The notes below the pieces were generated by a model. The model saw only the letters and a program-made list of their open reading frames with translations, was not told the DNA's origin and ran no database searches. A DNA stretch of 64,000 nt. It comes from an uncultured Desulfobacter sp. (GTDB taxonomy: Bacteria; Desulfobacterota; Desulfobacteria; Desulfobacterales; Desulfobacteraceae). This document shows, piece after piece, positions 12,668-31,116 of the stretch. Location: assembly GCA_963665095.1 (NCBI GenBank), contig OY762069.1:6112001-6176000 (forward strand), written 5' to 3'. The position numbers were made by a program, and so were the translations under genes. Each line of letters opens with the position of its first letter. The stretch's first letter is position 1.

Positions 12668-13621
12668 ATGGAGGATATATACAATATGGAAAGTATTATA
12701 AATACCTATCTTGAGCAGCAGGAGTGTCTGATCATTGACGGGGCACTTGGCACGGAGCTGGAACGAAGAGGGTGCCGCCTTGATGATCCGCTCTGGTCGG
12801 CCCGGCTGCTCCAAGAAGATCCCGGCATGATTGCCGCCATTCACACGGATTACCTGAAGGCCGGTGCCGACTGCCTGATTACGGCGAGCTACCAGGCAAC
12901 CTTCCAGGGGCTGGCACGCCGGGGCCAGACCACTGATCAGGCCCGGGCTCTTATCCGGTCTGCGGTTACACTGGCAAAAAAGTGCGTAGACGACTTCTGG
13001 TCTGACCCGGCCAACCGTTCAGAACGGCTTAAGCCCCTGGTGGCTGCCTCTGTTGGGCCTTACGGCGCCTTTCTGGCAGACGGGTCTGAATATACAGGCA
13101 ATTATGGTCTGGACGAACAAGATCTGATGGATTTTCATAAAAAGCGCCTGGAAACCCTGGCCTCAGCTGCACCTGACCTGCTGGCCTTTGAAACCCTGCC
13201 CTGTTTTGTTGAGGCAAAGGCCCTTGTGCGGCTGCTGGAGGAGTTAGATGCGGTGCCGGCCTGGGTCAGTTTCAGCGCAAAGGACGGGCAGCACATAAAC
13301 AGTGGCGAGTCCGTCCGGGCGTGTGCCCGATGGCTTGATCAAAAATCCTGCGTGGCAGCCATGGGAATTAACTGCACAGATCCTGTACATGTGGACAGCC
13401 TGATTCAGGAGATCCGGTCTGTTACAGATAAGCCGGTGATTGTATATCCAAACAAGGGAGGGATTTACAACGGGCTGACCAAAGTATGGGCACCCAACCC
13501 CGATCTGCCGTCCTTTCATGAGATGGCCTGTCAGTGGGCCAAAAGCGGTGCGCGACTCATTGGCGGCTGCTGCCAGACAACGCCGGAGGATATTTATCAG
13601 CTTGCTCTGGCTGTGAAGTAG
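12668..13621 (+). CDS. mmuM: Homocysteine S-methyltransferase
   Basis: DGALGTELE, LWSA, SVGPYGAFLADGSEY.G.Y, FET, GINC, YPN.G, IGGCC Zn ligands. Confidence 0.92.
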   Translation: MEDIYNMESIINTYLEQQECLIIDGALGTELERRGCRLDDPLWSARLLQEDPGMIAAIHTDYLKAGADCLITASYQATFQGLARRGQTTDQARALIRSAVTLAKKCVDDFWSDPANRSERLKPLVAASVGPYGAFLADGSEYTGNYGLDEQDLMDFHKKRLETLASAAPDLLAFETLPCFVEAKALVRLLEELDAVPAWVSFSAKDGQHINSGESVRACARWLDQKSCVAAMGINCTDPVHVDSLIQEIRSVTDKPVIVYPNKGGIYNGLTKVWAPNPDLPSFHEMACQWAKSGARLIGGCCQTTPEDIYQLALAVK

Positions 13622-13765
13622 CTGCAGTATCTGTGGAATGGCGAAATGGAATTTCCTGTACAGGATGTTTTAAGGCCAGACACCCTTTGGGATTTCCCAC
13701 CATGAGCAGGTGTAGAGGTCCATTCTGGACTTATTACTTTTTTATGTCGCGCTCCGGAAAAAGTG

Positions 13766-13827
13766 TTGACAAATGACATGCCATTGATTAGAGATCCAAT
13801 CAATATTAACATTATCAGAAGATAATG
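13766..13827 (+). promoter_or_regulatory. Candidate sigma70 promoter with overlapping palindromic operators
   Basis: TTGACA at 13766-13771 with only a weak -10. IR ATTGATT-N8-AATCAAT (13783-13804) and IR CATTATC-N4-GATAATG (13810-13827). Confidence 0.45.
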
Positions 13828-13911
13828 AAGTTAGAATTTTTTTTGCTGCTGAAACAAGTAAAAGTTACTGCCTGATATATTACTTCAGATAACTTTTTAA
13901 AATAGGAAAAC

Positions 13912-13973
13912 AAAAAGGCCAGGAAGGTCATGCCGGTATAAACTATCGGATGGTGCTCTCTTGGCTTTTTTTT
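13912..13973. terminator. Terminator-like hairpin within the operon leader (possibly bidirectional)
   Basis: AAAAAGGCCAGGA...CCGGTA-TAAAC-TATCGG...TCTTGGC followed by a T8 run. A-run on the left side. Confidence 0.6.
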
Positions 13974-14320
13974 GTTGGGCAATTTGAAATTGAATCAATG
14001 GCCGGTACTGCAATTACCGGCAGATTCAAAGAAGGAATGTAAAAAAAATGACCTGATTAAGGTTAATGCGAATAAGACATAATGTTACAAAAAAGGGGAA
14101 GCAGTCTTCCACCGGCCAAGGTTTTCAGACTGATTCCCCGAGAATGAAGCCCCTTGATTAGGGGAGCCTTCGGATTTATTTATACAATCCAAAGCTTCCC
14201 TTTGTCAAATAAACTGTTAATTCCTGCGGACTTCCATACCGGGTCTCATACCAGACCTGCCGGTAACATTAATTTTTTGCCTAAAATTTAAAACCTAAGC
14301 TGTTTGAAAGGAGTCAGACA

Positions 14321-15091
14321 ATGTCTAAAGCTGTTGTAAAATCGTTAGTTGTACTTCTGTTTGTTCTTTTACCGTCATCTGTTTTCGCACATACTTTATG
14401 GCTCAATGTCACGGATTTTTATCCTGAAGTTTTTTCCCACCCCAAATATGCGCCCATTCCCAGGGCCAAGACCGTGGTCTATTTCGGCTGGGGTCATAAA
14501 CTTCCTGTTAATGATTTTTTCAGCGATTCCTACCTGAACGAGCTTCACATGATCGAACCGGACGGGAGTAAGGTTGAATTAAAGCCGGGGCAGGGCGGTT
14601 TCATGGCAACGGAGATAACCATGAAGAAACCTGGCGGGCGTATCGTTACAGCCTCGGTCAAACCCGGATTTCATGGGGATGTTGAAGGGAAAAACGATTT
14701 TTTTCAGATGCGCTACGAGATGTATGCAAAAACCCTGATTTGTGTGGGAGATGTTCAGGATAGTTTTTTTGAAAAGCCTGTGGGGCAAAGGTTTGAGATT
14801 GTGCCGAAACAAAACCCCAAAGATTTGAAACCTGATGACTGGTTTGAATTTGACGTGCTAATGGATGGAAAACCGGCAAAAGGGGCTGAAATTTCCGCCT
14901 CTCCCTACGCAAGACCGGAAATTTCGATGCTTGATAACATGACTTATAAAGAGACCGCAAAAATAAAAGTCATCGACTACCACGGGCCATGGAGAATAAC
15001 TGCCAAGCTTAAACTGCCGGCTACCAATGAATTCAAAGATAAATGCGAAACGCTTTATTTTGTTTCCACCCTGACATTTGAAGTCCCCTGA
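14321..15091 (+). CDS. DUF4198 domain periplasmic protein (often linked to Ni/Co uptake)
   Basis: Signal peptide ending AH.LWL, GWGH motif, YAKT, G..FEIVP..NP..L, GKP, C-terminal TLTF. AAGGAG RBS. Confidence 0.82.
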   Translation: MSKAVVKSLVVLLFVLLPSSVFAHTLWLNVTDFYPEVFSHPKYAPIPRAKTVVYFGWGHKLPVNDFFSDSYLNELHMIEPDGSKVELKPGQGGFMATEITMKKPGGRIVTASVKPGFHGDVEGKNDFFQMRYEMYAKTLICVGDVQDSFFEKPVGQRFEIVPKQNPKDLKPDDWFEFDVLMDGKPAKGAEISASPYARPEISMLDNMTYKETAKIKVIDYHGPWRITAKLKLPATNEFKDKCETLYFVSTLTFEVP

Positions 15092-15189
15092 AAAGAACCT
15101 GTAAACCGGCTTTGGGTGCTTAATTGCGCTGGAGTTACTTTAACTGACTAATTTTGCATGAAAAGCAAAGATTTGAAAAAGGAGAGGAT

Positions 15190-17250
15190 ATGTTCGGAAA
15201 AGCGTTGATGCTCAATAGAACGTGTTTGAAATATGGGCGTCGGGTAAAACATGGTTGGTATGGTTGCCTGATGATTTTGATGGCATGTTTTCTGGCTGCA
15301 GGGACTGTCAGCAGTGTTGAGGCCGATGAAACAGCTGAAGAGCTTGAAGAAATTGTAGTGACCGCCGTAAAAGACGAAGTCAAAGAAAAGATTGCCATTA
15401 CCGCACTCTCTGAAGTGATCGAACTCGACGATCTTGAAACCACAGAAACCGTACAGCGTCTTCAGGATCTGTTTAACTATATGCCCGGCGTGGACATGAT
15501 TCGAACCTCCACAGTAACAGAGGCAGCAGATCCTTTGAAACTCAGGGGGTTCGGCAGTACGCGTGTGGCCGTTCTTATGGATGGAAGACCGCTGAATAAA
15601 GCCGGGTCCATGGGGTCAAGCAACATGGACTGGGCTTCTCTCTCCCTTGAGGCCATTGAGAAGGTGGTGGTGGTCAGGGGCGGATGTACCGCCCTTTACG
15701 GCGGGGCCATCGGCGGTGTCATCAACATCATTACCCGGAAACATGTCAAAGATCCTGAAAAAGACTTTGAAGGCAAAGTCAGCGCTGAAGTCGGCAGTTA
15801 CAATTCAAAGCTGGCTAAAGGTTACATCATGAAGGAACTGGGTGCGTTCAACTTATTGCTGGGTGCAAACTACTCTGATACGGATGGTTATCTGAGAAAT
15901 AATTACTTTGAGTCCTCCAATTTCACCGGCCGCCTGTCATATGATCTGCCCACCAATGGAAATGTGACCCTGGGTTTAAAATACGGTGTCATCGAAAAGG
16001 GTATTCCCGTCCGTAATGATCCGGATTTTGCATTATCCCAGTATGATCCGGATTATCCTGTTGTGGATAAGGATACCACCTACTATATGACCGGCGGTGA
16101 CAACTACTGGGACAAAGATATCTATTATCTTGACCTCTCCTTTGAGCAGCCCACGAAAATTGGCAATTTTGTTTTGCAGTTGTTTCAGACTAAAGATGAA
16201 TTTCATCGCAAAGATTACATGTATATAGAATCCAGAACGCCTTATTATTTTCAGTCTGATTATCATTACAACAAAAACGAAACCGATGGATTTCGTTTTA
16301 CCCATGACCTTGCCTTTGGCAAGCACAGTCTGATCTGGGGATGCGAATATCAGAGGATGTATAACGGGTATGATGTTGATTCCTATAGAGGCAATTCCTA
16401 TAAAGAGTGGGGTGAAACGGTTGATATCAGCTCTCTCTTCATTGAGGACAAGTATCAGCTGACCGAAAAACTGGAAGCCATGCTGGGATTACGGTACGAT
16501 TATGTCACATATGAGATCGAGAACCAGGATGACCAGGACTGTCTGGCACCCAAGTTCAGCCTGAATTATAGCTTCACCGACAGCACCTCTGCTTATCTGG
16601 CCCTTTCAAAGGTCTTCAGGCCCCCTTATGCCAACTGGGAGCGGGGCTACCGGGATTCCGACCGTCCTGAATTGGGGCTTGCCGATCCTGACGAAGGATT
16701 TCAGTACGAAACCGGCGTAGAGTACAAGAAAGGCAAACTTCGCACATTACTGTCCACCTATTATTACGACATGGACAGCTATATTGTTAAAGCCACGGGG
16801 TATGGCGGCTCCGGGTTAAAGGAAAATATCGAGGTTGGTATCTTCGGTATCGAATACCAGATTATATTAAGACCTTTGTCCTGGCTGGAAACCTATGCCA
16901 ACTATACCTATCAGCATGTCCATGTGTTTGACATGAAGGAGCTTCCCGCCGATGAAGGCATTGACCTGGACGAATTGCCCGACCACAAGGTCAACGTTGG
17001 ATTCAAGGTGAAAACCTGGAAAGACCTCCTTTTTAATCTCAACGTCCGGTATGTGTCCAAGCGGACCACCGTGGATGACGAGCCCATGGAGGAATTTGTC
17101 ACTGCCAGTGCAAGTCTTGAAAGAAAATTTTTCGACAGCCTGAATGTCAAAGCATACGTTTCCAATATCGCCGATACCACCTATCAGGAGACCTTTGGCT
17201 ATGAAATGCCGGGACGTTCTTACGGGTTTAATATGGAGTACACATTTTAA
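15190..17250 (+). CDS. TonB-dependent outer-membrane receptor
   Basis: Signal peptide, TonB-box-like EEIVVTA, plug PGV...LRGF...VLMDGRP...IEKVVVVRG...LYG..AIGGVINIIT, C-terminal PGRSY....YTF. GGAGAGG RBS before ATG 15190. Confidence 0.95.
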   Translation: MFGKALMLNRTCLKYGRRVKHGWYGCLMILMACFLAAGTVSSVEADETAEELEEIVVTAVKDEVKEKIAITALSEVIELDDLETTETVQRLQDLFNYMPGVDMIRTSTVTEAADPLKLRGFGSTRVAVLMDGRPLNKAGSMGSSNMDWASLSLEAIEKVVVVRGGCTALYGGAIGGVINIITRKHVKDPEKDFEGKVSAEVGSYNSKLAKGYIMKELGAFNLLLGANYSDTDGYLRNNYFESSNFTGRLSYDLPTNGNVTLGLKYGVIEKGIPVRNDPDFALSQYDPDYPVVDKDTTYYMTGGDNYWDKDIYYLDLSFEQPTKIGNFVLQLFQTKDEFHRKDYMYIESRTPYYFQSDYHYNKNETDGFRFTHDLAFGKHSLIWGCEYQRMYNGYDVDSYRGNSYKEWGETVDISSLFIEDKYQLTEKLEAMLGLRYDYVTYEIENQDDQDCLAPKFSLNYSFTDSTSAYLALSKVFRPPYANWERGYRDSDRPELGLADPDEGFQYETGVEYKKGKLRTLLSTYYYDMDSYIVKATGYGGSGLKENIEVGIFGIEYQIILRPLSWLETYANYTYQHVHVFDMKELPADEGIDLDELPDHKVNVGFKVKTWKDLLFNLNVRYVSKRTTVDDEPMEEFVTASASLERKFFDSLNVKAYVSNIADTTYQETFGYEMPGRSYGFNMEYTF

Positions 17251-17381: not shown

Positions 17382-18404
17382 ATGATTCCCGTTCCAAAAC
17401 TTCCTGATATCGGCATCGATGCATTTCATCACTCCCTGAATGGCGGGGAAATTTTGTTCCTGCTCAAAGCTGCCGTGGATCACAAGGTATTTGAATTTTG
17501 CGACAACCCTGTAACTGCAGAACAATTCTGTGCAGCACGGGGTACCAACACCCTATTGACTGAGAAGTTTTTCAATGCTCTGACCGCAGCCGGATTCCTC
17601 ACAAAACAAAATTCAGAGTTTCAAAACACGCCGCTGGCCGCCACCTGTTTTATGGAAGGAAAACCCTTTTATCAGGGCAACCTGATCAGTCTGCTGGTGA
17701 AAACCCGGACGGAACGCTGGAGCAACCTTGGCCGCTGTCTGGAAGAGGGGCCGCTTCAGCCCCAAAATGACAGAAACCGGGTATTTGACGGCAGCTTCAT
17801 CCGGGCCATGGCCGAAGGCGCCATGCGTGGCGGGCTGCACCGCACTGTTGAACATGTAACCGCGCTGCCTGAGTTCAAGACGGCAAAAAAGCTTGTGGAT
17901 ATCGGCGGCGGGCACGGCCTGTATGCCATTGCCTTTGCCCAGGCCAGCCCAGGGCTTGAAAGCGTGGTGTTTGATCTGCCACCGGTTACAAAGGTTACAA
18001 ACGAATATATTCAATCCTATGAGATGCAGGATAGGGTAACAGCTGTGGCCGGAGATTATACCGAAGATGACTGGGGACAAAACGTCGATATTGTCTTTGC
18101 CTCCGACTGCCTGTACCGCCCCACGGAAACAGTGAGGCCGGTTCTGAACAAAATACGGGAGTCTCTGAGTCCCGGGGGAATGTTTATTTCCAAACATTTC
18201 ATGATGGATGAGGGCAGAACCTCTCCCGATACCACGGTATATTTTGATTTGATGGTATCCTTGATCGGCAATTTTTCCGGCTACATCCATACCCCAAAAG
18301 AGTGGTGCCAGGTGCTGGAATCAGCTGGATTTGCGGTGGATTCCCTGGATATCTCCTCTCCGGCAAAACCGTCCATGATTTTTGTGGCAAGGAAAAAGGG
18401 GTAA
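17382..18404 (+). CDS. SAM-dependent O-methyltransferase (dimerisation domain + Methyltransf_2)
   Basis: N-terminal wHTH dimerisation region, DIGGGHG motif I, FDLP, AGD, L.PGG. Confidence 0.9.
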   Translation: MIPVPKLPDIGIDAFHHSLNGGEILFLLKAAVDHKVFEFCDNPVTAEQFCAARGTNTLLTEKFFNALTAAGFLTKQNSEFQNTPLAATCFMEGKPFYQGNLISLLVKTRTERWSNLGRCLEEGPLQPQNDRNRVFDGSFIRAMAEGAMRGGLHRTVEHVTALPEFKTAKKLVDIGGGHGLYAIAFAQASPGLESVVFDLPPVTKVTNEYIQSYEMQDRVTAVAGDYTEDDWGQNVDIVFASDCLYRPTETVRPVLNKIRESLSPGGMFISKHFMMDEGRTSPDTTVYFDLMVSLIGNFSGYIHTPKEWCQVLESAGFAVDSLDISSPAKPSMIFVARKKG

Positions 18405-18426
18405 TGGTTTGCCCGTTGGAGACTCC

Positions 18427-19563
18427 ATGATGAGATTACACCCAAAACGATTTTCTTTATCTTCGTACCTGGGCTGCTGGGTCCTCGTAACACTGGTGCT
18501 TTGCCTGGCAACGGCCGGGTGCGAAAGCAAACCGCCTTTGGAGGAACCAGGACAGGGCATAGTTCGCATCACGGATTGTGTCGGGCGCAGTGTGGATATT
18601 CCCAACCCGGTGAAAACTGTTGTGGATCTGGCCATCCTTGATGGGACACGCACCATGGTTGAGCTGGGAGCCGCCTCCATGCTGATCGGGGTCAATCACC
18701 GCGTCAAGGAGTATATGTATGGAGAACAGGGAAAAAAGCGAAATTACTGGTTTGCCGCACCCAAGGCAGCGCCTCAATTAGGTGACCTGCCCTGTGTGGG
18801 TATATACAGGGAACCCAATTCAGAACTGATCACCGCACTTAAACCCGATATTATTCTGGTTTATGCCCCGGCCAGGGATATTGCCAGTGCTCTGGAGACA
18901 CAAACCGGAATCCCCGTAGTCTGCATCAGCGCATCCGGATGCCTTGACTTTTCCATGCACCGGATCATGGGGCAAATTCTGGGCAAAGAGCAAAGGGCAC
19001 AGGAGTTAATTGATTTTGCACAGAAAAAGATTTCATGGGTCAGGGAAAGAGTTGCAAAAATACCGGAAGAGAAGCGGGTAAAGGTGTTCTACTGGGGCTG
19101 GCCGCGCAAAGACGCCCCGAAAACATTTGCCCCGTATGACCCCATCGATTTTGCCGGCGGAATCAATGTGGCCATGGCCGCCGATATCAAACCCTATGAA
19201 TCCTATGATGTCACCAAAGAGCAGATCGCTGTCTGGGACGCGGATGTTATTCTGATCCACGGCGGACACCTTCACCCAGCCATCTCCATTGATGATATTT
19301 TAAATGACCCGGCGCTTAAAACCGTGCGTGCGGTTAAAACCGGGCAGGTCTATTTCACCAAAGGGTTTATGATCGGCTGGGATCCGGCTTTAGGCGTCTG
19401 CGAGGTCTATTATATGGCCAAGCTTTTTTACCCAGACCTTTTCAGACAGCTTGATGTTGAAAGGGAGTGCAATGCCATTTTAGAAAAATTTTATGGTGTT
19501 CCGGGTCTTTATTCGGAGTTGCTGTCCAAAAGTCTTTTGCATACCTGGAAAAAGGACGTGTGA
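18427..19563 (+). CDS. ABC substrate-binding lipoprotein, Fe-siderophore/cobalamin (FecB/BtuF) class
   Basis: Lipobox LATAGC, ITD..GR.V.IP, E.I..LKPD, AV..G.VY. GGAG before ATG 18427. Confidence 0.9.
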   Translation: MMRLHPKRFSLSSYLGCWVLVTLVLCLATAGCESKPPLEEPGQGIVRITDCVGRSVDIPNPVKTVVDLAILDGTRTMVELGAASMLIGVNHRVKEYMYGEQGKKRNYWFAAPKAAPQLGDLPCVGIYREPNSELITALKPDIILVYAPARDIASALETQTGIPVVCISASGCLDFSMHRIMGQILGKEQRAQELIDFAQKKISWVRERVAKIPEEKRVKVFYWGWPRKDAPKTFAPYDPIDFAGGINVAMAADIKPYESYDVTKEQIAVWDADVILIHGGHLHPAISIDDILNDPALKTVRAVKTGQVYFTKGFMIGWDPALGVCEVYYMAKLFYPDLFRQLDVERECNAILEKFYGVPGLYSELLSKSLLHTWKKDV

Positions 19564-19565
19564 AG

Positions 19566-20690
19566 ATGGAGAACAGTGACGGCTATTTATTGAAATACGC
19601 AGGAAAAAGCCATGGGCATGGATTTTCCAGCACCAGGGATCATCAGCTTGATGCATATATCCGGTATACCTGGAGAAATACGCTTTTCATCATTGCGTTG
19701 ACAGTTTTACTCCTTATTCTCGGAACGGTCACGATTGTTCTGGGGCCGCTTAAAATGTCCATAGCTGATGTGTATGCCACCATTTTTCATCGATTTCTCC
19801 CCAGTCTTTTTTCAACCCCCGGAGAACTGGCCGAAAGAACCATCTGGTATATCCGGCTTCCCAGGCTGATCATGGGGATTGCAGCCGGCTTCAGTTTAGC
19901 GATTTCCGGTGCCGTGATGCAGCCGGTTTTACGGAATCCACTGGCAAGCCCATTCACCTTAGGGATATCTGCGGGTGCGGGGTTTGGTGCTGCCATTGCC
20001 ATTGTTTTCCAGAAAAGTTTTGGCACCGGGACCTTTTTCGTGGTCTCCAACGCCTTTGTATTTGCCCTGGTTACCGCCTTTGTCATCCTGGCGCTTTCCC
20101 GGTACAAAGGGGCCACCCCTGAAACCATGATTCTGACAGGGGTGGCTATTTCTTATCTGTTCCATGCCGCCACGACCCTGATGGAGTATTTTGCCGACGC
20201 ATGGGCGGTCAGGGAGGTGGTTTTCTGGCTGGTGGGAAGCCTGGCCAAGGCGACCTGGGGAAATCTTGCCTATATCCTTTGCGTGCTGTTGTTCTGTACG
20301 CCTGTCCTTATCTATAAATCCTGGGATTTGAATGTCATGAGTATCGGAGACGATGCCGCAAGAAGCCTTGGCACCCGGGTACAAAAAACACGCATGCTGC
20401 TCATGGTGGTTGCCTCGCTGGTGACGGCCACCACCATCTGTTTTACGGGAACCATTGGTTTCATAGGCCTGGTGGCGCCGCATATCACCCGCATGATCAT
20501 CGGGGGGGATAACCGCTTTGTGGTGCCGGCCTCAGGGCTTTTAGGCGCTCTGATGCTTGCCGGTGCCGACATTCTGGCCGTCAATATCATCTCCCCCACA
20601 GTGATTCCCATTGGTGTAATGACCTCATTCATGGGGGTTCCCCTGTTTATTTACCTGATCATAAAAAGAAAGCGGGAAACCTGGTTATGA
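19566..20690 (+). CDS. FecCD/BtuC-family ABC permease
   Basis: IRLPR, Q..LRNPLASPFTLG.SAGA.FGA, G...ARSLG, GTIGFIGLVAPH, IP.G..T...G.P.F. Confidence 0.95.
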   Translation: MENSDGYLLKYAGKSHGHGFSSTRDHQLDAYIRYTWRNTLFIIALTVLLLILGTVTIVLGPLKMSIADVYATIFHRFLPSLFSTPGELAERTIWYIRLPRLIMGIAAGFSLAISGAVMQPVLRNPLASPFTLGISAGAGFGAAIAIVFQKSFGTGTFFVVSNAFVFALVTAFVILALSRYKGATPETMILTGVAISYLFHAATTLMEYFADAWAVREVVFWLVGSLAKATWGNLAYILCVLLFCTPVLIYKSWDLNVMSIGDDAARSLGTRVQKTRMLLMVVASLVTATTICFTGTIGFIGLVAPHITRMIIGGDNRFVVPASGLLGALMLAGADILAVNIISPTVIPIGVMTSFMGVPLFIYLIIKRKRETWL

Positions 20691-21502
20691 GGCTGAAAAT
20701 AAACGATATCGTGTTCGGCTATAACAGTATTCCTGTTTTAAATGGAGTTTCGTTTGAACTGGCACCCGGAGAGGTCCTCTCCATTGTGGGGCCCAATGGT
20801 ACTGGAAAATCCACGCTGCTGCGATGCATGAACGGCCTCATGCGTCCGGACAAAGGAGATATCTTCCTGGGCAATGAAAATCTTGGGACCATGAAGCGGT
20901 TACAGATCGCGCAAAACCTGGGGTATGTTCCCCAGTCCTTTGAAACGGTTTTCCCTTTAAAGGTGCTTGACATGGTTCTTCTGGGGCGTCAGCCCCATGT
21001 GGCATGGAAAAGAACCCGGCAGGATCTGGAAAAAGCCTATGCCGCCCTGTATCTCACAGGCATCGAAAATCTTGCCATGCGCAGTTTCAGCGAAATCAGC
21101 GGGGGCCAGCAGCAGAAGGTGATTATTGCAAGGGCCCTGGCCCAGGAAGCGCGGATTCTGCTGCTGGATGAGCCGACGAGCAACCTGGATATCATGCACC
21201 AGCTCGAAGTTATGGAACTGATTAAAGACCTGGTGTCTGCCATGGCGCTTGCGGCAGTTGTTTCCGTACATGATCTCAACCTTGCTGCCCGATATTCCGA
21301 CCGGGTGCTGATGCTGCATCAGGGCCGGATTGTTGCCGCCGGCGATCCGATGTCCGTATTTACCCGGGACAATATTGCCGTTGTCTACCACGTTGAGGCA
21401 AGGGTGGACCGTGTGGACGGCAGACCCCACATCATCCCGCTGAAACCACTTCATCATAACGGATCAGAAAGGAGTAAAATTGACCATAAAAATGAATACT
21501 GA
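20687..21502 (+). CDS. FecE/BtuD-family ABC ATPase
   Basis: GPNGTGKST, ISGGQQQ, LLLDEPTSNLD, HDLNLA. ATGA overlap with the permease. Confidence 0.95.
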   Translation: MRLKINDIVFGYNSIPVLNGVSFELAPGEVLSIVGPNGTGKSTLLRCMNGLMRPDKGDIFLGNENLGTMKRLQIAQNLGYVPQSFETVFPLKVLDMVLLGRQPHVAWKRTRQDLEKAYAALYLTGIENLAMRSFSEISGGQQQKVIIARALAQEARILLLDEPTSNLDIMHQLEVMELIKDLVSAMALAAVVSVHDLNLAARYSDRVLMLHQGRIVAAGDPMSVFTRDNIAVVYHVEARVDRVDGRPHIIPLKPLHHNGSERSKIDHKNEY

Positions 21503-26716: not shown

Positions 26717-27595
26717 ATGGAATCGGAAAAAATAGTGACCCCTGAATTCTGGAAATCTCAATGGGAGTCCAGCCGAAAGTCATCTTTTTATGCCCGGAAA
26801 AAAATTCGTAGCGAATCCGAAACAGTAAAATTCTGGGATGACATGGCCCCTGAATACGGGAAAATGACATCTGAGAGATCAGGTGACCGTGTACAAAGGG
26901 TTATTGAACTGCTCGAACGGGACAATATCCTTACGCCTGACGCGCGGGTTCTGGATGTCGGGTGCGGACCTGGGAACTATGCACTGCCTGTTGCCAGGCG
27001 TTGCACGCATGTCACCGCACTGGACAGTTCATCGGGCATGTGTGACATCCTTGAAAAAGAAGCAGAAAACAAAAACCAGGAAAACATAAAAGTCATTTGT
27101 AATCCATGGGGAGATATCGATCTTGAAAAAGAGTCTCTGGATAAAAGATTTGATCTTGTTTTTGCATCCATGACACCGGCTGTCTGGGATTATGACTCTC
27201 TTAACAAGATGATCCGGGCGTCTGACAGATATTGTTGCCTGATTACGACAACCGGAAAAGGGTTTGGCAATTCAAGGTATGATATCTGGCGCAAGGTGTT
27301 TCAGGAAGAAAACACAACCCATCAATCCGGGTTTATATTTATTTTTAATCTGCTGTTCAGCTTAGGTTATCGGCCGGTTGTTCAATATTTAAATTTTGTA
27401 TGGGACAGGGAAGACCCGGAAGAAAAGGTCGTTAAAAGGCTGCTTCGCTCTTTGTGGTTATATACGGAAATAACGCCGGATATAACTGAACTGGTTACCC
27501 ACTATGTGAAAGAACGTTCAGAAGGCGGCATTTTCAGGGAGAAGGCAGACACCTGCCTGGGTATGATGGTCTGGGATGTTAATATCAAAGAGTGA
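26717..27595 (+). CDS. Class I SAM-dependent methyltransferase
   Basis: FWD..A..Y, VLDVGCGPG, ALD.S..M, FDLVFAS. AGGAGG RBS. Confidence 0.9.
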   Translation: MESEKIVTPEFWKSQWESSRKSSFYARKKIRSESETVKFWDDMAPEYGKMTSERSGDRVQRVIELLERDNILTPDARVLDVGCGPGNYALPVARRCTHVTALDSSSGMCDILEKEAENKNQENIKVICNPWGDIDLEKESLDKRFDLVFASMTPAVWDYDSLNKMIRASDRYCCLITTTGKGFGNSRYDIWRKVFQEENTTHQSGFIFIFNLLFSLGYRPVVQYLNFVWDREDPEEKVVKRLLRSLWLYTEITPDITELVTHYVKERSEGGIFREKADTCLGMMVWDVNIKE

Positions 27596-27720
27596 TGGCG
27601 TTGTAAAAAGTCTCCGCCTACTTCGTTATGGTCTCTGACCAGACGCTCGACATACTATGTGTATGACTTCGCCCCTGGTCAGACACCATGCCTTGTAGGC
27701 GAAGATTTTTACTTAGCCAT
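27595..27720 (+). repeat. 126-bp imperfect palindrome (ERIC/REPIN-like miniature element), copy 2
   Basis: Nested stems ATGGC/GCCAT, GTAAAAA/TTTTTAC, CGCCTAC/GTAGGCG, TCTGACCAG/CTGGTCAGA and central hairpin CATAC-TATGT-GTATG. Begins at the methyltransferase stop. Confidence 0.82.
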
Positions 27721-27765
27721 TGGATGGAGTTTTAACCGGTTCATCAAAGAGTAACGGAGTTAATA

Positions 27766-29064
27766 ATGATTCGATTAAGCAGGATTACCGAAGACACCGT
27801 ACTTTCACACAATTCCCATGCCATTTATCCCGGCGCGCATTGTGCGTTTTTCGGTGTGGCCGGAATGGTCCCTCTGATTAAGGACAGCTATGCACTGATG
27901 GTTGGACCTACGGTGTGTCTGTATAATGCAAAGCTGATGATCAATTTGAGATCCCTGACATCCGAACCCCGGCCGGACAATCTGCTCTTGTTGCCCATTT
28001 CCCAGGAAGATGTGATTTTCGGTGCCAGGGAAAAGGTGCGCCAGGGCATCATTGAGGCTGACAGGCAATATCATCCCAAGGTCCTTTTCGTGGTTACCAC
28101 CTGTGTTCAGGAAATAATTGGTGAAGATTTTGATCTGTTCGTTGAAGAGGTCCGGCCGGAAGTGGATGCCACGCTATTGGTGGTTCATACGGATAATTTT
28201 ACCTGTGAAGATGCCTCACCCGGTATAGAGCGTACCTACCTTGCCCTTTCCGAACTGATGCAGCCTCAGAACCTTGTCCCGGGATCCGTCAATTTTCTGG
28301 GATTGCGGGCCCCGGGTGGCAGAAAAACCGAACCTGCCCGCCTGCTGGAAAAAAACGGCATAAAAATAAACAATGTTATTCCTTCATACAGTACCCCCGA
28401 AGATATCAGCCGTGCACCTGAATCCTCATTGAATATCGTTCTGGAACACTTTGCTTTGCCTCTTGCCCAGAAAATGGCCCGGCAGTTCGCCACACCATAT
28501 CTGTTTTGTGAACGGCCATATACGCCGGATGCCATTGAGGCCTGGTATTGTCAGATTGCAGATAGACTGGGCATAGACATTGACAGGGATATCCGCCGGT
28601 TAAAAGAGGAGACAAAAGCATGTATGAAAGAACGGGCAGCCACCCTTGAAGGCAGCACCTTTATCCTGGGAATGCAGCAGGGGCGCACTTTTGATATAGC
28701 ACAATTTTTAGTCCAGATGGGAATGACGCCTCTATTGATCTATGTGAACCGGATCCATTCACACGATTATGAAGATATTGCATCGTTGCTGTCCTGTGGC
28801 GTTGACCCCTTTGTAATGAAAAGTGGGGATGCGTTAAGAAGTGATGAAATACTCAATGAGCTGAAACCCGATTACTTCATCGGCCATGGAGACCGGCGGA
28901 CATTGGCCTCTTTTGGTGTGAAATCCCGCAGTCTGATCCGTGTCTATGATTTTCCGGGTTTTGAAGGGGCTCAGCAGGCGGCTCAATTATTGGAAATGCC
29001 ATTAACCGGGGACGGCGTTCTGAACTATAAGGAACAGTATATCGCCAGCAGCAAAGGAGTTTGA
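27766..29064 (+). CDS. Nitrogenase-like component 1, alpha/D/BchN-type subunit (Oxidored_nitro)
   Basis: PG.HC26..FG, GP..C51, EDVIFG, TTC113..EIIGED, VNFLG. No FeMo-co ligand motifs recognised. Confidence 0.88.
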   Translation: MIRLSRITEDTVLSHNSHAIYPGAHCAFFGVAGMVPLIKDSYALMVGPTVCLYNAKLMINLRSLTSEPRPDNLLLLPISQEDVIFGAREKVRQGIIEADRQYHPKVLFVVTTCVQEIIGEDFDLFVEEVRPEVDATLLVVHTDNFTCEDASPGIERTYLALSELMQPQNLVPGSVNFLGLRAPGGRKTEPARLLEKNGIKINNVIPSYSTPEDISRAPESSLNIVLEHFALPLAQKMARQFATPYLFCERPYTPDAIEAWYCQIADRLGIDIDRDIRRLKEETKACMKERAATLEGSTFILGMQQGRTFDIAQFLVQMGMTPLLIYVNRIHSHDYEDIASLLSCGVDPFVMKSGDALRSDEILNELKPDYFIGHGDRRTLASFGVKSRSLIRVYDFPGFEGAQQAAQLLEMPLTGDGVLNYKEQYIASSKGV

Positions 29065-29068
29065 AAAA

Positions 29069-30340
29069 ATGGCCTTGATAATGAAAAACGCCCCGGTGCC
29101 GTCTGATTACTTTGGTACGTTATGGGCGCTTTCCGGAATTAAAAACAATCTGATTTTAGAACATGGGGCAACAGGTACGGCATTTTATAATGCTGTGAGC
29201 TATATGGTCATGAACAAACAGTCTCCTAAAGGCAAGTTGTTTACGACCGGACTGGATGAAGACGATGTTGTTATGGGGCGGGAGGAGAAGCTCATTAAAG
29301 CTGCCAGAGAACTGGATGAAAAATATCATCCTGAACTGATTTCTCTTGCCGCCACCGCAGTGACATCGGTTATCGGTCTTGATCTGGAAGGGCTTTGCCT
29401 GGAACTGCAACCTGAAATAAATGCCAGGCTGCTTTCGTTTACCGGCGGCGGTTTTATCGGAGACTATACTGCCGGCCTTAAAGATGTTTTTTTGTCACTG
29501 GTGAAGAATCTGACCCGTGAATCAAACCAAAAAGAACGTTGCAGTGTGAATTTGATCGGGCCGACCATCGACAGTTTCAATTACCCTTCTGATCTCACTG
29601 AAATCCGGCGCTTATTGTCTCTTATCAATGTAAATGTAAACACAATTTTTACACAGAATACCAGTGTGGCTGAAATTGAGCATCTTACATCAGCCTCTTT
29701 GAATGTCGTAACCCGTGATATCGGTCTGGATGCAGCTAAATATCTGAAAGATACCTATGACATGCCGTATTATCACCATCTTCCCTTTGGTCTCAAAGGA
29801 AGTGTTGAGTTCCTTGAGACTATTGCCGAACGGCTCGGCCTTTCCATAAGCCGGAGGGCGATCGCCAAAGAGTTGACGCAATACGGCCATACCCTTGCCG
29901 AGTTATCTTCGTGGTGGCACCGTTACGGGCATTTGCGTGTCATTGTCTCCTGCCCCTATGACTATGCTCTGGGACTCACCCGGTTCATCAGCAGGGAATG
30001 GGGGCTTTGCGTGCATGCCGTGGTTTTCCCGACACCGCCTGAGGTGCCGGATGCCGCTGACACCTTCCATCGCCTGGGGGTGAAAAAAGTCCTGTCCGCT
30101 CCTTTGGAAAGAGAGCTTCAGGCCCTCTATGATGACATTGGACCCCATATTCTGTTTGGAAACGCATATGATTTTGCATTGGCGCAAAACGTGCCCATCC
30201 GCATTCACGCATCCACACCGGCCTATGACCATCTTTATCTTTATGATGGCGCACCCTTTGTCGGTTTCAGGGGCAGTTTATATTTAACGCAGTCGTTGAT
30301 CAATCATCTCAACCAGTACCGGGAGAAAGAAAAATCATGA
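29069..30340 (+). CDS. Nitrogenase-like component 1, beta/K/BchB-type subunit (Oxidored_nitro)
   Basis: HG..G, TT.L.E.DVV.G.E.KL, VIG.D, VNLIG, D..EI.RLL, PFG, PFVGFRG. Canonical cluster Cys residues absent. Confidence 0.86.
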
Positions 30341-31116
30341 GGAAAATAGCCATTTACGGAAAGGGCGGGATCGGCAAATCAACGACCACGGCAAATCTGG
30401 CCGCAGCTTTAACGGATATGGGCTTCTGCGTTCTTCAGATCGGGTGTGATCCAAAAGCAGACTCAACAAGTATGTTAACCGGCGGCAGGATGATTCCGTC
30501 CATTCTTGATGTGGTCCGGGAGAGCAAAAACCGTGTGAAACTCGAAGATATTGTTTTTAAAGGGTATGGCGGAACGTTATGCGCGGAATCCGGAGGCCCC
30601 ATGCCCGGGGTGGGATGTGCCGGCAGGGGGATTATTGCTGCGTTCAACACCCTTGAAACATTAAATGTTTTTGACGTTTATCAGCCGGACATCGTGTTAT
30701 ACGACGTTCTTGGAGACGTCGTTTGCGGCGGGTTTGCCATGCCCCTTCGAAACGGCTACGCAAAGGAAGTGTATATTGTGACATCCGGAGAGAAAATGTC
30801 CCTGTTCGCAGCCAAAAACATTTCCAGGGCTGTGGATCAGTTCAAAGGCCGGGGATATGCCCGTTTAAACGGGGTGATCTTAAACTGCCGGGGCGTCCCG
30901 GATGAACATGATTTGGTGCAGCGGGCAGCTGATGAGATGAATACCCGTATCCTTATTGATATTCCGCGTGCTTCAGTGGTGCAGCAATGCGAAGAGAAAA
31001 ATGTCACTGTGATCCAAGGCGCTCCGGATTCAAAAATGGCAAATGCCTATCGAAAGCTGGCAAAAATTATTGCAGGAGGCACTGATCTTAATACAGACTG
31101 CGTATCAGGGGATTGA
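30337..31116 (+). CDS. NifH/BchL/CfbC-like Fe protein (ATP-dependent reductase)
   Basis: [46 protein letters not shown]. Both [4Fe-4S] Cys present. Only 259 aa. ATGA overlap with the beta subunit. Confidence 0.93.

What the first reader, a model, noticed from the sequence alone, without database searches (positions are those of the whole stretch)
27766..30340. Cluster-ligand pattern: three Cys on alpha with BchN-like spacing, none on beta, so the fourth Fe ligand is unusual or open
Seen: alpha has Cys26, Cys51 and Cys113 (C-x24-C-x61-C). Beta has PSD13YFG, HGATGT37 and ATAVTSVIG at the positions where NifK carries its P-cluster Cys. Established: R. capsulatus BchN uses Cys26/51/112 plus BchB Asp36 (HGPQGD) for one [4Fe-4S] cluster; a P-cluster needs Cys from both subunits. 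Inference: there is no P-cluster or FeMo-co. A single [4Fe-4S] cluster is likely, with Thr37, Asp13 or substrate/water as fourth ligand. Beta (423 aa) also appears to lack the C-terminal extension of BchB.
Basis: partly seen in the sequence, partly recalled or inferred. Interest (0 to 1): 0.72.

Follow-up and report, generated by a model that had tools for sequence, protein, structure and literature searches.

The report
Nitrogenase-like reductase lacking beta-subunit cysteines
An uncharacterised nitrogenase-like enzyme ends a metal-cofactor import operon, and its second subunit lacks the usual cluster-binding cysteines, so it likely holds one iron-sulfur cluster with an unusual fourth ligand and is predicted to reduce an imported vitamin-B12-like molecule.

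Summary
The residues are as described. Alpha Cys26/51/113 are invariant in 52 of 52 close relatives, and beta has no Cys at the three NifK sites. A P-cluster and FeMo-co are very unlikely.

Three corrections. (1) Ser12, not Asp13, sits at the NifK Cys70 site, so Asp13 is a poor ligand candidate. (2) Thr37 sits exactly at the BchB Asp36/NifK Cys95 site, which is Thr, His, Cys, Asn or Ser in 119 of 121 wider relatives.

The genes close a TonB/FecCD/Nik-type import operon. Four of six bacterial orthologue loci lie behind a cobalamin riboswitch; the window's does not. A sister clade sits in heme-uptake operons.

The 3-Cys/0-Cys pattern and the non-Cys-ligand idea were published in 2012 (PMC3464626); I found no characterisation of the enzyme. 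No structure could be predicted here, so the fourth ligand stays open: Thr37 site about 0.4, Cys147 0.2, open or [3Fe-4S] 0.2, Glu31 0.1, Asp13 0.05.

The parts
27766..29064 (+). NflD-like alpha subunit, 432 aa (PF00148)
   Evidence: below every NCBIfam equivalog cut-off (best NifE 88 vs 505)
27841..27843 (+). alpha Cys26 (NifD Cys62 / first BchN Cys site), predicted cluster ligand
   Evidence: 52 of 52; alignment; codon
27916..27918 (+). alpha Cys51 (NifD Cys88 site), predicted cluster ligand
   Evidence: 52 of 52
28102..28104 (+). alpha Cys113 (NifD Cys154 site), predicted cluster ligand
   Evidence: 52 of 52
28204..28206 (+). alpha Cys147, fourth conserved Cys, in the loop matching NifD Gly188; candidate pocket or fourth ligand
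   Evidence: 45 of 52, the other 7 have Cys150; 66 of 72 in the wider set; register against NifD
28444..28446 (+). alpha Glu227 at the NifD Cys275 (FeMo-co ligand) site
29069..30340 (+). NflK-like beta subunit, 423 aa, no Cys at the P-cluster sites, no PCP_red tail
29102..29107 (+). beta Ser12 (NifK Cys70 site) and Asp13
29159..29161 (+). beta Glu31, acidic when site 37 is not Cys
   Evidence: acidic in 110 of 111 non-Cys37 rows, 0 of 10 Cys37 rows, 0 of 58 rows outside the clade
29177..29179 (+). beta Thr37 at the BchB Asp36 / NifK Cys95 site; likeliest place of the fourth ligand
29357..29359 (+). beta Ala97 at the NifK Cys153 / BchB Cys95 site
30337..31116 (+). NifH/CfbC-like Fe protein, 259 aa, Walker A motif, Cys94 and Cys130
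   Evidence: CfbC 344 of 402 bits, NifH 331 of 394: below both cut-offs
14321..15091 (+). DUF4198 protein, first gene of the co-oriented run
15154..17250 (+). TonB-dependent receptor
17382..18404 (+). SAM-dependent methyltransferase (Methyltransf_2)
18382..21502 (+). FecCD/BtuCD-type ABC importer: binding protein, permease, ATPase
   Evidence: binding protein closest (33-43%) to those of the riboswitch-led loci L011, L010, L008, L017
21480..26569 (+). Nik/Opp-type ABC importer (five genes)
26717..27595 (+). second SAM-dependent methyltransferase, directly before alpha

Best explanation
The three genes encode a nitrogenase-like alpha/beta pair and a NifH-type Fe protein at the end of a metal-cofactor import operon; they likely form an ATP-driven reductase with one [4Fe-4S] cluster on alpha Cys26/51/113, whose fourth iron is likely bound at the beta Thr37 site, and it is predicted to reduce an imported corrinoid-like metal tetrapyrrole. 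Shown: the residues, their conservation, the alignment registers and the gene context. Inferred: (1) the Fe protein hydrolyses ATP and passes single electrons to the cluster, as BchL does; (2) the fourth iron is held by the Thr37 oxygen, or by a water held by Thr37 and Glu31, while Ser12, Asp13, Glu31 and Thr96 fill the space of the missing second P-cluster cubane; (3) the cargo binds in the emptied FeMo-co/protochlorophyllide pocket, where Cys147 (or Cys150) and His25 would contact its metal; (4) reduction changes the metal state or loosens the metal, so the cofactor can be salvaged or re-metalated.
For: Triad invariant (52 of 52; 70 of 70 at Cys26 and Cys51). Thr37 aligns with BchB Asp36 and NifK Cys95, the site that the review PMC13474568 (section 5.2) gives as the DPOR Asp and the COR BchZ Cys ligand. 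Among 121 clade rows with a residue, site 37 is Thr 79, His 25, Cys 10, Asn 3, Ser 2, Ile 1, Gly 1. A Cys37-bearing group is the nearest sister of the window's subclade in two quick trees (SH-aLRT 95, 82). No FeMo-co ligands, and no NifB among the operon's genes. FecCD-type importer genes in 14 of 17 orthologue loci and 54 of 59 sister-clade loci of 9 kb or more. Cobalamin riboswitch directly ahead of the operon in 4 of 6 bacterial orthologue loci, two of them in one genome, and ahead of the genome's own paralogue. CobN or CbiK chelatase within a few genes in L001, L014, L019 and L008. The window's binding protein is closest to those of the riboswitch-led loci. The sister clade sits with IsdE-like binding proteins (best hit in 17 of 22, all under the cut-off) and with HutZ, ChaN or flavodoxin genes in 23 of 59 loci, which points to tetrapyrrole cargo there too.
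Against: No structure model, so no distance was measured. Thr is a weak iron ligand: the review passages I read list His, Asp, Glu, Ser and Arg, not Thr, and the Thr precedent is recalled only and was not found. Cys147 is present in 76 of 85 paired loci and could itself be the fourth ligand. The window's operon has no cobalamin riboswitch although the genome has 14; none was found for its close relative L192/L198, for L013, or for 5 archaeal loci. Cobalamin riboswitches also head cobalt-ion transporters (recalled). The binding protein's solved relatives are iron, siderophore and nickel binders and HI_1472 (a molybdate binder, recalled), not BtuF. L013 and L020 lie by Opp/Nik-type importers only and L012 by none.
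Confidence: 0.4

Rival explanations
1. All four ligands come from alpha: Cys147 (or Cys150) is the fourth, giving an ordinary 4-Cys [4Fe-4S] cluster, and beta Thr37 is only a second-sphere residue.
For: All 52 close alphas carry a Cys in this loop, 45 at 147 and 7 at 150; 66 of 72 in the wider set. The loop is the pseudo-symmetry mate of the NifK Ser188 loop. This would explain why site 37 tolerates Thr, Ser, Asn and His.
Against: Cys147 is not invariant, unlike the triad: 9 of 85 paired loci lack it, only one of them (L008) with Cys150, and none has beta Cys37 to compensate. A whole subclade around the genome's paralogue has Thr there. It is kept alongside His37 in 4 of 4 loci. It aligns to NifD Gly188 and position 150 to Gln191, which lie toward the FeMo-co pocket rather than the beta-facing iron (geometry recalled, not measured).
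Confidence: 0.2
2. The fourth site has no protein ligand: an open iron with water, a thiol or the substrate, or a stable [3Fe-4S] cluster.
For: Thr, Ser and Asn are poor donors; three-Cys clusters with a non-protein ligand are common (PMC11138216 passages). BchB D36A giving a [3Fe-4S] cluster is recalled, not checked (one search found no paper).
Against: The site is buried at the alpha/beta interface and faces away from the substrate pocket (recalled geometry). It is held to donor-capable side chains in 119 of 121 rows and is His in a whole 25-member clade.
Confidence: 0.2
3. Beta Glu31 supplies a carboxylate as the fourth ligand, a DPOR-like 3Cys+carboxylate site built from a different position.
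For: Acidic in 110 of 111 non-Cys37 rows, 0 of 10 Cys37 rows and 0 of 58 rows outside the clade; Glu in 85 of 85 paired loci. Glu ligation has precedent in RsrR.
Against: The position is hydrophobic or small in NifK, NifN, BchB and BchZ, so it is probably a core position. In the large clade an invariant Arg one residue after the Asp13 site offers a salt-bridge partner. A single origin of the Thr37+Glu31 state is not rejected (AU p 0.36), so the covariation may be one event.
Confidence: 0.1
4. Asp13 is the fourth ligand.
For: 93 of 93 close betas with a residue there have Asp.
Against: It lies next to the site of the absent beta-half cubane. It is also present with Cys37 (9 of 10) and is Gly, Ser, Gln, Cys, Asn, Ala or Tyr in 32 of 115 clade rows with a residue.
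Confidence: 0.05
5. On function: the cargo in this genome is not a tetrapyrrole but another metal chelate (cobalt, nickel, molybdenum or ferric siderophore), and the enzyme releases the metal reductively.
For: No riboswitch on this operon. DUF4198, a Nik/Opp-type importer and two methyltransferases lie in the operon. Binding-protein relatives are iron, siderophore and nickel binders. A His37 member on a Sporomusa plasmid sits with a siderophore receptor, a two-permease importer and an esterase. 14 of 18 orthologue-bearing genomes hold NifD.
Against: Riboswitch, CobN/CbiK and heme markers dominate the neighbourhoods of relatives. The Fur-like match upstream is weak (13 of 19, 0.14 expected by chance).
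Confidence: 0.3
6. The pair is a non-catalytic scaffold (NifEN-like) or a decaying remnant.
For: Alpha scores best on NifE. Dos Santos 2012 suggest coupling of metal transport to cofactor assembly. Broken or partial copies exist (L009, L017).
Against: Intact D-K-H trio in 19 of 20 orthologue loci at 38-55% beta identity. No FeMo-co-type ligand, no NifB and no client enzyme in the operon.
Confidence: 0.08

Closest known systems
Uncharacterised 'NifEN-like' clade of Dos Santos et al. 2012 (PMC3464626, light-blue clade; CLM_0808/0809, Clos_0313/0314)
   Same: Three P-cluster Cys on alpha, none on beta, no FeMo-co ligands, next to nifH and an ABC ATPase; the authors already suggest a non-Cys ligand as in DPOR (section read in full).
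   Different: The window's order is D-K-H, theirs is ATPase-H-D-K; the genome's paralogue (G000:203.5-207.6 kb) has their order.
DPOR BchNB/ChlNB (NB-cluster, 3 Cys + BchB Asp36)
   Same: Alpha triad, no beta Cys at the fourth site, no FeMo-co ligands, tetrapyrrole-linked context.
   Different: Thr in place of Asp36; Ala at BchB Cys95; no PCP_red tail; far below BchN and BchB cut-offs (57 of 420 and 129 of 490 bits); no photosynthesis genes in the operon.
COR BchYZ and the maturase NifEN (3 alpha Cys + 1 beta Cys)
   Same: The same four sites; Cys37-bearing sister proteins of the window's beta keep this set.
   Different: The window has Thr at the beta site, no Cys275 equivalent, and lies outside the genome's nif cluster (G000 4.84-4.85 Mb).
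CfbCD (Group IV-B)
   Same: The Fe protein scores best on CfbC (344 bits); metal-tetrapyrrole reductase analogy.
   Different: Two different subunits, three alpha Cys; CfbD model scores only 43 and 42 bits.
MarDK, NfaDK, IsrDK (Groups IV-C, IV-A, IV-F)
   Same: Nitrogenase-like DK pair with an H protein.
   Different: Mar has P-cluster Cys on both subunits and a NifB homologue; Isr has 1 alpha + 3 beta Cys (PMC13474568 section 9.4), the mirror image of this pattern.
Group VI NFL (Elusimicrobia)
   Same: At most four of six P-cluster Cys, no NifB, tetrapyrrole role proposed from context.
   Different: Group VI sits among radical-SAM genes and its NifH is sister to Group V; here the context is importers and the Fe protein is CfbC/NifH-like.

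Membership tests
Mo/V/Fe nitrogenase NifDK | Six P-cluster Cys (three on each subunit) | tested here: not met
   beta has Ser12, Thr37, Ala97
Mo/V/Fe nitrogenase NifDK | FeMo-co ligands Cys275 and His442 | tested here: not met
   Glu227 at Cys275; no His after 374 in alpha
DPOR BchNB | Three alpha Cys at the NB-cluster sites | tested here: met
DPOR BchNB | Asp at BchB 36 | tested here: not met
   Thr37
DPOR BchNB | PCP_red C-terminal domain and family score cut-offs | tested here: not met
COR BchYZ / NifEN | Beta Cys at the fourth-ligand site | tested here: not met
   Thr37
CfbCD | Single homomeric D subunit with two Cys; family cut-off | tested here: not met
   two different subunits; 43 and 42 bits vs cut-off 268
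MarDK / NfaDK | P-cluster Cys on both subunits and a NifB homologue in the cluster | tested here: not met
   no radical SAM gene among the operon's genes
IsrDK | One alpha Cys plus three beta Cys | tested here: not met
   three alpha, zero beta
Dos Santos 2012 light-blue NifEN-like clade | Three Cys on alpha, none on beta, no FeMo-co ligands | tested here: met
Dos Santos 2012 light-blue NifEN-like clade | Downstream of nifH and an ABC ATPase | tested here: inconclusive
   ABC ATPases lie upstream, but nifH follows D-K in the window; the paralogue has the described order
Dos Santos 2012 light-blue NifEN-like clade | Branches with CLM_0808/0809 and Clos_0313/0314 | not testable with these tools
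   those sequences were not reached; the paper's supplements are unreadable here
Group VI NFL | Placement in the Group VI NifH clade; radical-SAM-rich loci | not tested
   no Group VI reference sequences in hand; the context differs
Any [4Fe-4S] NFL | One [4Fe-4S] cluster per alpha/beta pair, shown by spectroscopy or structure | not testable with these tools

The most novel reading that the evidence does not exclude
This is a widespread, uncharacterised branch of nitrogenase-like reductases dedicated to imported metal cofactors. Its cluster's fourth ligand has been retuned in nature from Cys to Thr, Ser, Asn and His, with the cargo class tracking the subclade: corrinoid salvage, anaerobic heme use, siderophores. 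A second Cys/His site in the pocket grips the cargo's metal. It would give a threonine-ligated [4Fe-4S] cluster and an ATP-driven route for anaerobes to strip or reactivate metal tetrapyrroles.
Probability: 0.2. Interest if true: 0.8.

Novelty: new variant of a known kind. Interest (0 to 1): 0.5.

Why it matters
The 2026 review PMC13474568 names the function of uncharacterised nitrogenase-like systems as one of the field's main open problems and says gene context has helped little. Here the context is informative, and the family offers a natural series at one ligand site (Cys, Thr, Ser, Asn, His) against DPOR's Asp. That makes two questions directly testable with one purified complex: how the fourth ligand tunes an ATP-driven [4Fe-4S] relay, and whether anaerobes use such enzymes to process scavenged B12-type cofactors and heme. 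Relatives are common in gut and other anaerobic metagenomes (478 confirmed matches for the sister clade). The basic 3-Cys/0-Cys observation is not new.

Tried and rejected
Structure prediction of the subunits and of the complex was not available, so there is no model, no fold search and no distance; the geometry rests on alignments and recalled structures.

Two independent Cys-to-Thr changes: suggested by quick trees, but a single origin is not rejected (AU p 0.36). Not claimed.

Strict coupling of alpha Cys150 with beta Asn37: seen in 3 contig-length-matched pairs and in L008, but L020 has Asn37 with Cys147. Rejected as a rule.

Whether Cys37-bearing sister betas have alphas without Cys147: their partners were not found. 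The test stays open.

Fur-like sites (recalled consensus): best 13 of 19 at 13798, 0.14 expected by chance. Not used.

Rfam on window 10000-34000 and 13600-14400: nothing real. PADLOC: one weak P-loop hit only. Protein atlas: only PF00148 clusters. Sequencing runs: no RNA holder listed.

Literature: recalled reports of nitrogenase homologues 'IsrAB' and 'FezAB' were not found by four searches; if they exist they may concern relatives of this clade. A search for nitrogenase-like + heme + iron acquisition listed 6 papers, none describing such an enzyme by title or abstract (passages of one read). Ghebreamlak and Mansoorabadi 2020 is not held. The Dos Santos supplements, which hold its context figure, could not be read.

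Link to nitrogen fixation: 9 of 11 Methanotrichaceae genomes with the beta gene have NifD against 37 of 94 without (Fisher p 0.01). Kin are not independent and the genomes are incomplete, so this is kept as a lead only.
Full report
OBSERVATION. The finding spans two reading frames, 27766-29064 (alpha, 432 aa) and 29069-30340 (beta, 423 aa), followed by a NifH-type gene at 30337-31116. Both are PF00148 proteins below every NCBIfam equivalog cut-off. Beta has no PCP_red tail, which Pfam does find on BchB and BchZ. One contig of public run X4 matches 27700-30812 without a difference; run X6 laid nothing.

ALIGNMENT REGISTER. I aligned both subunits with NifDKEN of the same genome, VnfDKEN, BchNB, BchYZ and three CfbD proteins and checked by profile comparison. 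Alpha Cys26/51/113 fall on the NifD and BchN triad. In beta the three NifK sites are Ser12, Thr37 and Ala97; Asp13 is one residue past the first site. Thr37 falls on BchB Asp36 and on the BchZ Cys. PMC13474568 (section 5.2 read) states that the DPOR Asp occupies the NifK Cys95 position and that COR probably uses a Cys there. The NifD Cys275 site is Glu227, and alpha has no His after 374. The C-x24-C spacing is shared with NifE, VnfE and BchY, so it is not a BchN signature.

CLOSE RELATIVES. The beta search gave 103 hits; I left out the self hit and 7 fragments or distant hits and aligned 96 rows with the query. The alpha search gave 60 hits; I left out the self hit, 4 fragments and 4 distant hits and aligned 52 rows. 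The triad is 52 of 52. Beta site 37 is Thr 84, Asn 7, Cys 3, gap 2. Asp13 is 93 of 93, and site 12 is Ser or Thr in 92 of 93. Alpha Cys147 is 45 of 52, and all 7 exceptions have Cys150 in the same loop.

WIDER FAMILY. A profile search of cluster representatives and a FastTree of 181 rows gave a clade of 123 betas (support 0.997). Site 37 is Thr 79, His 25, Cys 10, Asn 3, Ser 2, Ile 1, Gly 1, gap 2. Site 13 is Asp 70, Gly 21, Glu 13, other 11, gap 8. Asp or Glu13 accompanies all 10 Cys37 rows and none of the 22 His37 rows with a residue, which argues against Asp13 being the replacement ligand. The residue six before site 37 (Glu31) is acidic in 110 of 111 non-Cys rows, 0 of 10 Cys rows and 0 of 58 rows outside the clade. 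Quick IQ-TREE runs put a Cys37 group beside the window's subclade and nest the His37 group in a larger Thr clade, but one origin of Thr37 is not rejected (AU p 0.36). In 72 alphas of the wider set Cys147 is kept in 66; His25, His144 and His150 are common in the large clade. In 85 paired loci, window included, Cys147 occurs in 76 and Glu31 in 85, and no locus lacking Cys147 has beta Cys37. Cys147 aligns to NifD Gly188 and position 150 to Gln191, a residue the review places at FeMo-co. That BchN Phe25 and Phe150 touch protochlorophyllide, and that the alpha-half cubane uses three alpha Cys plus beta Cys95, is recalled and not checked.

CONTEXT. The trio ends a run of 15 co-oriented genes with gaps of at most 170 bases: DUF4198, a TonB receptor, a methyltransferase, a FecCD/BtuCD-type importer, a Nik/Opp-type importer and a second methyltransferase. 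Twenty orthologue loci from Methanotrichaceae, Methanomicrobiales, Methanolobus and clostridia keep the order D-K-H (the alpha of L004 was masked by an opposite-strand frame, and L009 is broken). FecCD-type genes occur in 16 of 20 of these and in 65 of 89 sister-clade loci (14 of 17 and 54 of 59 for loci of 9 kb or more). CobN or CbiK lies nearby in four orthologue loci. Of 11 orthologue loci scanned with Rfam, 4 of 6 bacterial ones (L008 and L010 in one genome, L011, L017) have a cobalamin riboswitch directly ahead of the operon; 0 of 5 archaeal ones do. The window's operon has none, though the genome has 14, two of them ahead of its other nitrogenase-like operons. The window's binding protein is closest to those of the four riboswitch-led loci (33-43%); its solved relatives are iron, siderophore and nickel binders. 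The large sister clade has IsdE-like binding proteins (best hit in 17 of 22 submitted, none over the cut-off; 0 of 6 for the window's subclade) and HutZ, ChaN or flavodoxin neighbours in 23 of 59 loci, against 0 of 17. One of 8 sister-clade loci scanned had a cobalamin riboswitch. A His37 member on a Sporomusa plasmid lies with a siderophore receptor and an esterase. Only this genome among 151 of its family has a close orthologue, which suggests horizontal gain. It also has a full nif cluster and three other nitrogenase-like pairs.

MECHANISM. Most likely the Fe protein delivers ATP-gated electrons to one [4Fe-4S] cluster on Cys26/51/113, the fourth iron sits at the Thr37 site, and the electron goes on to an imported corrinoid-like metal tetrapyrrole in the emptied cofactor pocket, with Cys147 and His25 near its metal. 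My odds for the fourth ligand: Thr37 oxygen or a water held there 0.4, Cys147 0.2, open site or [3Fe-4S] 0.2, Glu31 0.1, Asp13 0.05, other 0.05. For the cargo: tetrapyrrole about 0.55, other metal chelate about 0.3.

WHAT IS KNOWN. Dos Santos et al. 2012 (PMC3464626; section 11 read whole and passages; supplements unreadable) describe pairs with three alpha Cys and no beta Cys beside nifH and an ABC ATPase. They suggest a non-Cys ligand as in DPOR and a link to metal transport. The 2026 review (PMC13474568; sections 2.3 part 1, 2.4, 5.2, 7, 9.4 and 10 part 1, plus passages) describes no characterised enzyme with this pattern in the parts I read. PMC13753814 (abstract and one results section) finds Mar activity only in Group IV-C. 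PMC11423573, PMC9447857, bioRxiv 765248, PMC11138216, PMC12552129 and PMC9431491 were read as passages only. Ten searches found no paper on this clade's ligands or on Cys147 or Glu31; the library lacks most subscription papers. Earlier scan notes on other genomes reach similar B12 and iron-chelate readings. They are not independent evidence, and they prompted me to finish the riboswitch scans.

VERDICT. New here are the corrected register, the natural ligand series at site 37, the Glu31 signature, the fourth alpha cysteine, and the corrinoid, heme and siderophore contexts of the subclades. New variant of a known, uncharacterised kind; interest 0.5.

Noticed in passing
G000:C1:203563-212066 (L041, L042): Paralogous operon behind a cobalamin riboswitch: TonB receptor, binding protein, permease, ATPase, H, alpha, beta. 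Its beta has Ser at site 37 and its alpha Thr at 147, so it has only three candidate thiols.
   Followed up: partly
G000:C1:244000-268500 (L043): Third nitrogenase-like H-D-K set with three Cys on each subunit, beside CobN, CbiZ, TonB receptors and a BadF/HGD-D pair; a cobalamin riboswitch lies at 268263-268477.
   Followed up: partly
G000:C1:3521500-3527540 (L044): Fourth, divergent H-D-K set after a NiFe-hydrogenase-family gene and a radical SAM gene; alpha keeps two of the three Cys and beta has Gly at site 37.
   Followed up: partly
L107-L184 (metagenome loci): The large sister clade sits in heme-uptake operons (IsdE-like binding protein, HutZ/HugZ-like, ChaN, NEAT, flavodoxin, AraC) and carries conserved alpha His25, His144, Cys147, His150 and His374: a candidate anaerobic heme-processing enzyme.
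   Followed up: partly
L047:2198-12016; L091; L094: His37 members lie with two-permease, siderophore-type importers and AraC regulators; in L047 an esterase follows.
   Followed up: partly
window 27595-27720: A 126-base nested inverted repeat between the methyltransferase and alpha; one more copy (87% identical) at G000:2764289-2764414, upstream of a gene that looks like a TonB receptor.
   Followed up: partly
window 15154-17250: The TonB receptor scores best on the selenoprotein 'CU motif-type' models (333 bits, cut-off 700) but has no in-frame stop.
   Followed up: no
window 13806-13828: A 7-base inverted repeat with a 4-base spacer, overlapping the best Fur-like match (13 of 19) ahead of the operon.
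   Followed up: partly
G152 family and L001-L020 genomes: Genomes with this system often also hold canonical NifD: 14 of 18 overall, and 9 of 11 against 37 of 94 in Methanotrichaceae.
   Followed up: partly
G000:C1:163358-164188: A second nifB-like gene with an in-frame TAA, far from the nif cluster.
   Followed up: no
L009:8857-11146; L017:13419-14258: Split alpha and beta in L009, and a truncated extra beta copy in L017.
   Followed up: no
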